Part shown: one piece after another, positions 38,166-40,070 of the stretch
Layout: the number at the start of each line of letters is the position of its first letter
Numbering within the stretch: position 1 is the stretch's first letter
DNA from: the human T2T-CHM13v2.0 reference genome, Homo sapiens
DNA length: 64,000 nucleotides
Reading direction: 5' to 3'
Assembly: GCA_009914755.4 (NCBI GenBank)
Contig: CP068257.2
Coordinates: forward strand, 39,872,001 to 39,936,000
Notes under the pieces: model-generated
Seen by the model: the letters and a program-made list of their open reading frames with translations, nothing else
The model's database searches: none
What the model was told of the DNA's origin: nothing
Program-made: the position numbers and the translations under genes

Positions 38166-39872
38166 CAACCACCAAGCTTTCAGCAAATTCTTCAGATGAA
38201 TTCCAGATGCCAGTTGTTCAAACAAGGAAAAGGTTGTTTAATATTTGTTGTTTTTCATGGTTGAACCAAGTTATAAGGCTCAGCCCCAAGGCTCACTGTG
38301 TATGCTATAAAAACAATTACCTTTTACTGAATATTTGCTTTGCCAGTCACCACACTCAAGTTTACATTACCTCAGTGCAAGATGGACACACTGATTTCCC
38401 CTTTTTACAGCTGAGAATGCTGGGGTTCAGAGAGGGCACTTGACTTGGCTGCACCACACAGCCCCTAGGAGATGGGCAGCTGAGTTGGAATCAGGAGCTG
38501 GGGTTCCTGGGGTCAGGATTTGGGAAGGGAACCCTGTTGGTGGGGCTGTTCTGCTCCCATTCTGTCCCCAGGGGCCCCAAGTCCTGCAGGCTCTCTTAGC
38601 TCCAGAACCCAGAGGGAGGCAGTTGCAGGGGGAAGGGTGTTTGGAAGAGCATGGGGAGTGCAGCAGCAGCTGAGGGTGAGACACCTGGTCTGCTTCGTCT
38701 CCTGCTTCCCTGTCTGTAGGCCTCCTTCTCCTCCCACCTCACTGCTGTCAACTCCACGGGGAATCCCCTGTGTCTAGGATGGGTCACCAGCTGCTGAGAA
38801 GTCCTCTCACTGGGTAGGCAGGTCTTCTGGAGGTGGCTCTGGGGCCTCTGTCATAACTCTAACAGGTCCGAACACAGGCCATTCACAATGATGGGGAGAC
38901 ACAGGATCATTGCAATAAGAACTTCCCCCGTGAAAAAGGTGGGGAGGAGGCTTATATGTCACTCTGGGTGACAGAAAGGAATGGGGGTTTGAGGCCTCTG
39001 GGGAGCCCATTCTGGTCTCCTCCAGTCCTATTAAATCCTAGTGAATTTGGCCTCCTCCAGTCCTGTTAAATCCTGGCGAATTCTGAGCCCCCTACAATTG
39101 CAAACATTGAAAAGAGCCTCTGAAGTACCTGGGAAAAACCACGTCTTCCAGGCAGAGGTGTGGCCCACCACTTCCTCACCCCTGCCCTAGTTAGTGGTGC
39201 AGGGAGACATACGCCCCACAACAGAGTGCACTGTCCTCTGCCTTGCTGTGTGAAAAACTTTTTTTATCATCCAGGACCAACATTTTCATTACATTGTTGA
39301 ATGTCAACATTTTTAGACAACAAATGGCCACCTGGTGAAGTGCAGATGCTAATCAGATATGAGTACCTGCCGTACCCTTTAAAGCTTTTAAGACATGCAG
39401 CACTAGCTCCAACAATAAGAGTTTATGATTAAACAAACTTCATTAAAGGTCAGCTTCCAGAATTACATTTCAAGCTCACATCCTGGGCTTTTTGAAAAAG
39501 CACCATTTTGAATGAAAGGCTGTATATGTCAAAGATGGGTGAAGTGTCACAAGGCTTTTTTAAAAAGGGCCTACAAGATAAGATCAGTGCCCCAAATCCT
39601 TCCCAGAAAGGCAGCACCTGCTTTCCATGGTTGAAAAAGTTATTCAAAGACCCTTGTTAAAGATGGAAAGGTGGACTACTCAGGACCATCGCAATAGGTC
39701 CAGGCACCATGGCAATGGGACTTTCTGGGGTGGGAGAGATTGGGCTCCACTCTAACTACAGCCCAGGCAAGTGGGGACTGATAGCCCAGGAGCAGAGTGG
39801 GGTCCGTGGATAGAAAATCACTAAGGGGAAACATCAGGGGTGAGGGGGATTCTGGCTAAACTGCCCTTGCTG

Positions 39873-39896
39873 AGAACAGGCTGAGGTGATCAAACA
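39873..39896 (+). promoter_or_regulatory. Candidate androgen-response element (AGAACAggcTGAGGT) immediately followed by a forkhead-type motif (TGTTTGATC on the opposite strand). It lies about 14.2 kb upstream of the TMPRSS2 TSS.
   Basis: tgAGAACAggcTGAGGTgatcaaacatcat. The left half-site is a perfect AGAACA. The right half-site has 3 of 6 matches to TGTTCT. The sequence gatcaaaca is the reverse complement of TGTTTGATC, a FOXA-like core. The position matches the published AR-bound enhancer at about -13.5 to -14 kb. I could not verify that this exact motif is the published ARE. Confidence 0.4.
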
Positions 39897-40070
39897 TCAT
39901 CCGAGGGATGGTGGAGGGTGAGGAACCCCATCAGATATCGAGGGTGGAGTTCTCATCAAACTGACTTAACAGGGTTCTTTGCTGGAGCTGGATTTTAGAA
40001 GGAAGTGCACATATGGGCCCTAAGAAAAGCTCAGGAGCTTGACTAAAGTTCCATCAAGCAGAGAATCTTT

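What the first reader, a model, noticed from the sequence alone, without database searches (positions are those of the whole stretch)
39840..39990. Candidate AR/FOXA1 composite element at about -14.2 kb, the expected position of the TMPRSS2 androgen-responsive enhancer
At 39873-39887 there is AGAACAggcTGAGGT. Its left half-site is a perfect AR half-site and the spacing is 3 bp. It is abutted by gatcaaaca, which is TGTTTGATC on the other strand and matches a forkhead core. Further AR-like half-sites lie nearby: GGTTCT at about 39975 and GAGTTCT at about 39948. The distance from my inferred TSS (about 25693) is about 14.2 kb. This matches the literature's roughly -13.5/-14 kb AR-bound enhancer that drives androgen induction of TMPRSS2 and of TMPRSS2-ERG. 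I cannot confirm from memory that this exact 15-mer is the published ARE, so this is a positional and motif inference. A young L1PA insertion with intact TSD lies only about 180 bp away (40071-40624), which would mean a lineage-specific change in the enhancer's immediate context.
Basis: partly seen in the sequence, partly recalled or inferred. Interest (0 to 1): 0.5.

Follow-up and report, generated by a model that had tools for sequence, protein, structure and literature searches.

The report
Chance ARE-like motif beside known TMPRSS2 enhancer
The window does hold the well-known androgen-responsive enhancer upstream of human TMPRSS2, but the motif flagged here is a chance-level half-site inside an old repeat, about 0.5 kb from the published, experimentally tested androgen response element.

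Summary
The locus call is right. The window is the 5' end of human TMPRSS2, with the gene on the - strand and exon 1 at 25614-25691.

The 15-mer AGAACAggcTGAGGT (39873-39887) is not distinguishable from chance. It has one perfect half-site and a poor partner, and 3-mismatch matches to the consensus are no more frequent in the window than in shuffles. The "forkhead" TGTTTGA fails even a loose forkhead consensus. Three half-site-like hexamers in 151 bp occur in 31% of such windows.

Published landmarks map elsewhere:
- The standard AR ChIP-qPCR amplicon is at 39206-39279 (-13.5 kb).
- The published "TMPRSS2-ARE" EMSA oligo is at 39358-39380, with the ARE GGTACGgcaGGTACT on the - strand at 39362-39376.
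- rs8134378 most likely falls at 39372.

The site does fall in the last 85 bp of the published 3.3-kb "E1" reporter fragment, and at the cut site of one E1 knockout guide. The whole interval is a copy of an old dispersed repeat. The AGAACA and TCAAACA arose by point changes from that repeat's consensus. The adjacent L1 fragment is real but not young.

The enhancer is already known and interest is low.

The parts
39873..39887 (+). The left half-site is perfect. The right half keeps only T10 and G11; T12 and C14 are lost.
   Evidence: It has 3 mismatches to the consensus, scores 6.2 bits and ranks 82nd in the window, which is chance level.
39888..39896 (-). Forkhead-like TGTTTGATC on the - strand. 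It matches 6 of 7 positions and fails TRTTTRY.
   Evidence: It is overlapped by the Chen et al. E1 knockout guide E1_2 at 39885-39904.
39946..39978 (.). Two further half-site-like hexamers: AGTTCT at 39948-39953 and GGTTCT at 39973-39978.
   Evidence: Three such hexamers per 151 bp are found in 31% of windows of that length.
39634..40070 (+). A copy of an old dispersed repeat whose family I could not name. It contains the whole flagged interval and is interrupted near its 3' end by the L1 fragment.
   Evidence: 70% identity to 17344-16873 on the - strand; 68-75% identity to copies in host-derived metagenome contigs with different flanks. The family consensus at the motif is GAAGACAGGCCAGGGTGATCAGACATCA.
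16873..17344 (-). A second copy of the same repeat, in TMPRSS2 intron 1. It carries AAGACAGGCTG-GGTGATCAGACA where the enhancer copy has the flagged motif.
40071..40623 (-). A 5'-truncated L1 3' end on the - strand, seen as a T-run at 40068-40078 on the + strand. It is flanked by a target-site duplication at about 40053-40070 and 40624-40641 with 1 mismatch.
   Evidence: direct repeat D1.
39362..39376 (-). The published TMPRSS2 enhancer ARE, GGTACGgcaGGTACT on the - strand, 13.67 kb upstream of the TSS.
   Evidence: The EMSA oligo CTAGT-TATGAGTACCTGCCGTACCCTTT-C from PMC9376089 matches 39358-39380 exactly. It is the best non-repeat hit in 38-41 kb in the approximate AR matrix scan. Leach et al. 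summarise Clinckemalie 2013 as showing that the ARE at about -13 kb is crucial.
39372..39372 (.). Most likely position of rs8134378 (G>A). It is the C5 of the GGTACG half-site on the - strand, in a CpG. The window carries G.
   Evidence: hg19 positions and alleles of rs8134378 (G/A), rs56095453 (+50, A/T) and rs8134657 (+150, G/A) come from PMC6629701. They fit G39372, T39422 and G39522. This placement is an inference. G39361 also fits the alleles, but would break the reported perfect LD.
39206..39279 (.). The standard AR ChIP-qPCR amplicon for the TMPRSS2 enhancer, 13.5 kb upstream of the TSS.
   Evidence: The primers TGGTCCTGGATGATAAAAAAAGTTT and GACATACGCCCCACAACAGA match exactly. PMC5389688 lists them as ChIP primers, and they appear in four other papers.
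39346..39361 (+). An octamer-like ATGCTAAT (39346-39353) followed by AGATAT (GATA core), directly abutting the ARE. Another GATA site, TTATCA, is at 39264 inside the ChIP amplicon.
   Evidence: Searches give the sequence only. The assignment to OCT1 and GATA2 rests on my recollection of Wang 2007 and Clinckemalie 2013, and on the GATA2 statement.
36617..39957 (.). Enhancer E1 reporter fragment of Chen et al. 2019. The E1 deletion guides are at 37027-37046 and 39885-39904.
   Evidence: Supplementary Tables S4 and S7 of PMC6721761, mapped. E1 was the only DHT-responsive fragment, and its deletion lowered TMPRSS2.
25614..25691 (-). TMPRSS2 exon 1 (non-coding). The splice donor CAG|gt is at 25614/25613.

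Best explanation
The flagged 150 bp is the distal edge of the already known TMPRSS2 upstream enhancer region (E1). It is made of an old transposable-element-like repeat copy. The ARE-plus-forkhead arrangement is an isolated AR half-site next to a sub-consensus forkhead-like heptamer. Both were produced by a few point substitutions in repeat sequence, and neither is more than chance would give. Androgen induction through this enhancer works through the validated ARE GGTACGgcaGGTACT at 39362-39376, about 0.5 kb closer to the gene. That ARE sits in a stretch that is unique within the window and is flanked by octamer-like and GATA motifs. AR binds there as a dimer, helped by GATA2 and possibly OCT1 and FOXA1, and the enhancer loops to the promoter 13.7 kb away. 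Shown here: the positions, the motif statistics and the repeat origin. Taken from the literature: AR binding and function of the proximal ARE. Inferred: that the flagged motif has no independent role.
For: - Locus identity.
- Chance-level motif statistics.
- Published landmarks map 0.5-0.65 kb proximal: ARE oligo at 39358-39380 and ChIP amplicon at 39206-39279.
- Three SNPs listed as lying in VCaP AR ChIP-seq binding sites fit 39372, 39422 and 39522.
- The literature places the crucial ARE at about -13 kb and the enhancer at about -13.5 kb.
- The flagged 15-mer, on either strand, appears in no TMPRSS2 or AR paper in the searchable library. The one hit is an unrelated zebrafish study.
- It is not among the JASPAR MA0007.2 hits with p < 1e-4 that Leach et al. 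list for the region.
- Repeat origin. The family consensus has AAGACA and TCAGACA where this copy has AGAACA and TCAAACA.
Against: - The flagged motif is inside the DHT-responsive E1 reporter fragment and inside the E1 deletion of Chen et al.. Those experiments therefore do not separate it from the proximal ARE.
- AR commonly occupies half-sites next to pioneer-factor motifs.
- AR peaks in AR-amplified VCaP cells can be broad. I could not see ChIP-seq summits or peak boundaries, so weak AR or FOXA1 occupancy at 39.87-39.90 kb is not excluded.
- My AR matrix was built from the consensus, not from JASPAR counts.
- The primary paper on the ARE (Clinckemalie 2013) was not readable here.
Confidence: 0.85

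Rival explanations
1. The flagged AGAACA half-site plus forkhead-like motif is a real auxiliary AR/FOXA1 site of enhancer E1. FOXA1 opens the repeat-derived flank, and an AR monomer or weak dimer binds the half-site. This adds to the output of the main ARE 0.5 kb away.
For: - It lies within the DHT-responsive E1 fragment and within the E1 deletion.
- Chen et al. report FOXA1 dependence of E1, and their motif ranking of the enhancers puts FOXA1 first (Table S6).
- Leach et al. describe FOXA1 peaks coinciding with AR peaks upstream of TMPRSS2 in LNCaP.
- The half-site and the A-rich forkhead-like core are derived changes relative to the repeat consensus.
Against: - The motifs are at chance level, and the forkhead match fails the loose consensus.
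- The FOXA1 and AR ChIP amplicon of Chen et al. is 1.5 kb away.
- quotes GATA2, not FoxA1, as assisting AR at this enhancer.
- An equally good forkhead-like TGTTTAA (39430-39438) lies only about 55 bp from the validated ARE.
- No publication in the library uses this sequence.
Confidence: 0.1
2. The flagged 15-mer is itself the published -13.5/-14 kb ARE.
For: Only position supports it: it lies 14.18 kb from the TSS.
Against: - The published ARE oligo has a different sequence and maps to 39358-39380.
- The ChIP amplicon maps to 39206-39279.
- rs8134378, described as lying inside the ARE, cannot be placed in the flagged 15-mer given its coordinates relative to the other SNPs.
Confidence: 0.02

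Closest known systems
TMPRSS2 upstream (-13.5 kb) androgen-responsive enhancer with its ARE. Sources: Wang et al. 2007 Mol Cell and Clinckemalie et al. 2013 Mol Endocrinol (both from memory and via citing papers), and enhancer E1 of Chen et al. 2019 (PMC6721761).
   Same: It is the same locus, and the flagged interval is within the 3.3-kb E1 fragment (36617-39957). An AR half-site is present. The region as a whole is DHT-responsive in reporters and is needed for full TMPRSS2 expression.
   Different: The validated ARE (39362-39376), the SNP rs8134378 and the standard ChIP amplicon (39206-39279) are 0.5-0.65 kb proximal. The flagged 15-mer is a different sequence with a degenerate second half-site, and it lies in repeat-derived DNA.
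Canonical and selective androgen response elements: two hexamers of the AGAACA/TGTTCT type separated by 3 bp.
   Same: The left hexamer AGAACA is perfect and the spacing to a TG-starting hexamer is 3 bp.
   Different: The right hexamer TGAGGT lacks T12 and C14. The published TMPRSS2 ARE keeps G2/C5 and G11/T12/C14. By score the flagged site is an ordinary half-site, of which the window holds 43 exact copies.
AR half-site plus FOXA1 (forkhead) composite sites described from prostate AR cistromes.
   Same: An AGAACA half-site lies directly beside a T-rich forkhead-like core.
   Different: The forkhead core is TGTTTGA, not TGTTTAC or TGTTTGC. 16% of the AGAACA half-sites in this window have a TGTTTR within 25 bp, so the arrangement is not informative on its own. 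No occupancy data were available.
Regulatory sequence derived from transposable elements (exaptation of old repeats into enhancers).
   Same: The flagged interval is a diverged copy of a dispersed repeat at the edge of an active enhancer, and its motifs arose by point changes from the family consensus.
   Different: There is no evidence that this copy contributes activity. The functional core, 39209-39633, has no other copy within the window.

Membership tests
Full 15-bp androgen response element | Two hexamer half-sites with a 3-bp spacer that keep the contact bases G2, C5, G11 and C14 (and A4/T12). | tested here: not met
   In AGAACAggcTGAGGT the left half is perfect. The right half has A at position 12 and G at position 14. 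There are 3 mismatches, which is chance frequency, and the score of 6.2 bits ranks 82nd in the window.
Full 15-bp androgen response element | Binding of the AR DNA-binding domain in vitro (EMSA). | not testable with these tools
   No published oligo with this sequence was found. The oligo used as the TMPRSS2-ARE maps to 39358-39380.
Published TMPRSS2 -13.5 kb enhancer ARE | Identity with the published ARE sequence and position, and containing rs8134378. | tested here: not met
   The published oligo is at 39358-39380, 511 bp centre to centre from the flagged site. rs8134378 fits 39372.
Published TMPRSS2 -13.5 kb enhancer ARE | Coincidence with the AR ChIP signal. | tested here: inconclusive
   The standard ChIP-qPCR amplicon is at 39206-39279. 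SNPs listed inside VCaP AR ChIP-seq sites span about 39372-39522. Peak boundaries and summits were not available, so overlap with a broad peak cannot be excluded.
Enhancer E1 of Chen et al. 2019 (broad region) | Lying inside the cloned DHT-responsive fragment and inside the CRISPR deletion. | tested here: met
   The cloning primers map to 36617 and 39957. The guides are at 37027-37046 and 39885-39904, and the function of E1 is described. The flagged 15-mer is 70-85 bp from the fragment's distal end.
FOXA1 / forkhead binding site | Core TGTTTAC or TGTTTGC, or loosely TRTTTRY. | tested here: not met
   TGTTTGA has A at the last core position, and no TRTTTRY hit falls at 39888-39896.
FOXA1 / forkhead binding site | FOXA1 occupancy at the site. 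| not testable with these tools
   The only mapped FOXA1 ChIP-qPCR amplicon for E1 is at 38261-38346.
Young L1PA insertion | High identity to L1HS or young L1PA consensus, a poly(A) tail and a target-site duplication. | tested here: not met
   The poly(A) tail (a T-run on the + strand) and the TSD are present. That reference is approximate, and no subfamily call is possible without RepeatMasker.

The most novel reading that the evidence does not exclude
Two or three point substitutions in an old repeat copy (AAGACA to AGAACA, TCAGACA to TCAAACA) created a lineage-specific auxiliary AR half-site and forkhead site at the distal edge of the TMPRSS2 enhancer. This site would measurably add to androgen induction of TMPRSS2 and of TMPRSS2-ERG.
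Probability: 0.07. Interest if true: 0.3.

Novelty: already known. Interest (0 to 1): 0.1.

Why it matters
The TMPRSS2 upstream enhancer drives androgen-dependent expression of TMPRSS2. In about half of prostate cancers it also drives the TMPRSS2-ERG fusion. It became relevant again because TMPRSS2 primes the SARS-CoV-2 spike protein. Its ARE, its risk and eQTL SNP rs8134378, and its looping are already described. This check mainly fixes where those published elements lie in the window and shows that the flagged motif is not one of them. If the flagged site did turn out to contribute, it would be a small example of a repeat-derived auxiliary site in a well-studied enhancer. That would be of local interest only.

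Tried and rejected
- **Primary papers.** I tried to read Clinckemalie 2013 by PMC id and by DOI, and Wang 2007 by a PMC id recalled from memory. Neither is held. The ARE sequence therefore comes from an oligo reused in PMC9376089.
- **Peak coordinates.** I searched the library for hg19 coordinate strings around chr21:42,893,5xx-42,894,2xx to find AR peak boundaries. Nothing appeared beyond the SNP table already in hand. A search for "-14 kb" descriptions gave nothing useful.
- **Coordinate anchoring.** I tried to use the MA0007.2 table of Leach et al. as a coordinate anchor. Its coordinates do not fit the motif sequences and appear mirrored. I used it only for the statement that the flagged 15-mer is not listed.
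- **Exon-1 anchor.** I considered placing rs8134378 from my memory of the hg19 exon-1 donor coordinate (42,880,008). That gave 39363. I rejected it in favour of the three-SNP allele and spacing fit, which gives 39372. The 9-bp difference remains unexplained. Small indels between this sequence and hg19, or a faulty memory, could account for it.
- **Local duplication.** I considered that the repeat homology reflects a local inverted duplication rather than a dispersed repeat. I rejected this because copies with unrelated flanks occur in several metagenome contigs. A scan of genome contigs found none.
- **Other motifs.** I looked for NKX3-1, HOXB13 and ETS motifs in the flagged interval and found none.

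Full report
**Locus**

The window is the 5' end of human TMPRSS2, with the gene on the - strand. The TMPRSS2 exon-1 primer used for fusion detection (TAGGCGCGAGCTAAGCAGGAG, recalled from Tomlins 2005) matches exactly at 25668-25688 on the - strand. Exon 1 ends at the CAG|gt donor at 25614. The flagged 15-mer lies 14.18 kb upstream.

**The observation**

None of it is more than chance:
- The 15-mer has 3 mismatches to AGAACAnnnTGTTCT. The window holds 32 such matches, against 38 +/- 6 in dinucleotide-preserving shuffles.
- I built a symmetric AR matrix from the well-known consensus RGNACAnnnTGTNCY. It is my own approximation, not JASPAR counts. With it the site scores 6.2 of a possible 17.5 bits and ranks 82nd in the window, with 72 +/- 7 sites expected at that score.
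- The second half-site, TGAGGT, lacks T12 and C14, so the element is effectively one AGAACA half-site. There are 43 exact copies of that half-site in the window.
- The forkhead match TGTTTGA fails even the loose TRTTTRY consensus.
- 7 of the 43 AGAACA half-sites have a TGTTTR within 25 bp. Three hexamers within one mismatch of AGAACA per 151 bp are found in 31% of windows of that length.

**Where the published elements are**

- The primer pair TGGTCCTGGATGATAAAAAAAGTTT / GACATACGCCCCACAACAGA matches exactly at 39255-39279 (-) and 39206-39225 (+), which is -13.5 kb. PMC5389688 uses it as the TMPRSS2 ChIP pair, and it is listed in four other papers.
- PMC9376089 gives the oligo it used as "TMPRSS2-ARE" in AR-DBD EMSAs: CTAGT-TATGAGTACCTGCCGTACCCTTT-C. 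The genomic part matches 39358-39380 exactly. This places the ARE GGTACGgcaGGTACT on the - strand at 39362-39376, at -13.67 kb.
- In my matrix scan this ARE scores 9.4 bits. It is the best site in 38-41 kb outside the L1 fragment.
- PMC6629701 lists rs8134378 (G/A), rs56095453 (+50 bp, A/T) and rs8134657 (+150 bp, G/A) as lying in VCaP AR ChIP-seq sites. These spacings and alleles fit G39372, T39422 and G39522. On that fit, rs8134378 is most likely the CpG base that forms C5 of the GGTACG half-site. This placement is an inference.
- Citing papers describe this ARE as lying in an enhancer 13 kb upstream and as crucial for androgen regulation. They describe the enhancer as lying at about 13.5 kb.

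The flagged 15-mer is 511 bp from the ARE and about 640 bp from the ChIP amplicon, centre to centre. Both are met, the first only narrowly.

**What still links the flagged site to the enhancer**

- Chen et al. 2019 (PMC6721761) cloned a 3.3-kb fragment as enhancer E1. Their cloning primers map to 36617 and 39957. One of their two E1 knockout guides (GGTGATCAAACATCATCCGA) maps to 39885-39904, directly on the forkhead-like motif.
- E1 was the only DHT-responsive fragment of six tested, and its deletion lowered TMPRSS2 expression.
- The flagged motif is therefore inside the broad published enhancer, 70-85 bp from its distal end. Those experiments remove or include it together with the validated ARE, so they cannot separate the two.
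- Their AR and FOXA1 ChIP amplicon is at 38261-38346, 1.5 kb away.
- On pioneer factors the literature is mixed. [quoted passage not shown] Chen et al. and Leach et al. report FOXA1 at the AR-bound regions.
- Next to the validated ARE the sequence shows an octamer-like ATGCTAAT (39346-39353), a GATA core directly abutting the ARE, and a GATA site inside the ChIP amplicon. A forkhead-like TGTTTAA at 39430-39438 is as good as the flagged one.

**What the flagged interval is made of**

- Self-comparison shows that 39634-40070 is a copy of a repeat. It aligns over its whole length at 70% identity to 17344-16873 on the - strand, in intron 1.
- A 19-mer conserved between the two copies finds eight metagenome contigs. 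Six of them carry 68-75% identical copies, and they show no other match to the surrounding 38.9-41.2 kb, which points to other genomic loci. One more contig looks like a primate orthologue of the intron-1 copy, at 91% identity. The repeat is therefore dispersed. I could not name the family without RepeatMasker.
- At the flagged motif the family consensus reads GAAGACAGGCCAGGGTGATCAGACATCA. This copy reads GAGAACAGGCTGAGGTGATCAAACATCA.
- The perfect half-site and the A-run of the forkhead-like motif are thus a few copy-specific point changes in repeat sequence.
- The stretch 39209-39633, which holds the validated ARE, has no other copy in the window.
- The stretch just proximal of it (38947-39208) has an 80-93% copy at 26781-26255 near the promoter.

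**The L1 claim**

- 40071-40623 is a 5'-truncated L1 3' end on the - strand, with its poly(A) tail and a roughly 16-18 bp target-site duplication carrying one mismatch.
- It inserted a few bases from the end of the older repeat.
Even allowing for errors in that reference, it is not a young L1PA.

**Verdict**

The enhancer is real and already known. The specific AR/FOXA1 composite element is a chance-level half-site in repeat-derived DNA at the edge of the enhancer. The functional ARE is 0.5 kb closer to the gene. A minor auxiliary role for the flagged site cannot be excluded without occupancy or mutational data. I put that at about 0.1.

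Noticed in passing
window 9047-9061: This is the strongest ARE-like 15-mer of the whole window: GGCACAcgaTGTTCT, scoring 16.5 of 17.5 bits in my approximate matrix with 2 mismatches to the consensus. 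It lies in the TMPRSS2 intron between the coding exons at 11893 and 7129, about 16.6 kb downstream of the TSS. It is also the top JASPAR MA0007.2 hit (RG1h/i) in the table of Leach et al.
   Followed up: partly
window 46377-46465, 46654-46752, 50068-50138, versus 58701, 58409, 55446, 18672, 9046: Supplementary Table 1 of Leach et al. 2021 (PMC8249423) seems to give motif coordinates mirrored within chr21:41,490,000-41,580,500. The motif sequences RG1d-i map to window positions that do not fit the listed coordinates. The same-named ChIP-qPCR primers do fit the listed coordinates, and the RG1d amplicon lacks its motif. If so, those amplicons do not contain the motifs they are named for.
   Followed up: partly
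window 38947-39208 and 26255-26781: The sequence immediately proximal of the enhancer ChIP amplicon has an inverted 80-93% identical copy 0.6-1.1 kb upstream of the TMPRSS2 TSS. This is presumably another interspersed repeat, of a younger family. The enhancer copy carries a 35-bp x2 tandem duplication at 39013-39082.
   Followed up: partly
window 39209-39633: The roughly 425-bp core that holds the validated ARE, the octamer-like and GATA motifs and most of the ChIP amplicon has no other copy within the window. It is bracketed on both sides by repeat-derived sequence.
   Followed up: no
window 25614 versus 39372: The hg19 offset derived from the three-SNP fit (about 42,854,385) differs by 9 bp from the offset derived from my memory of the exon-1 donor coordinate (42,880,008). 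The mirrored Leach coordinates suggest offsets that drift by a few bp, and by about 440 bp beyond 55.5 kb. The window may differ from hg19/hg38 by small indels, or these external coordinates are unreliable.
   Followed up: no
L007:384-1237: A metagenome contig (OJLO01003550.1) is 91% identical to TMPRSS2 intron 1 (window 16422-17296). This is apparently primate host DNA in a metagenome assembly.
   Followed up: no
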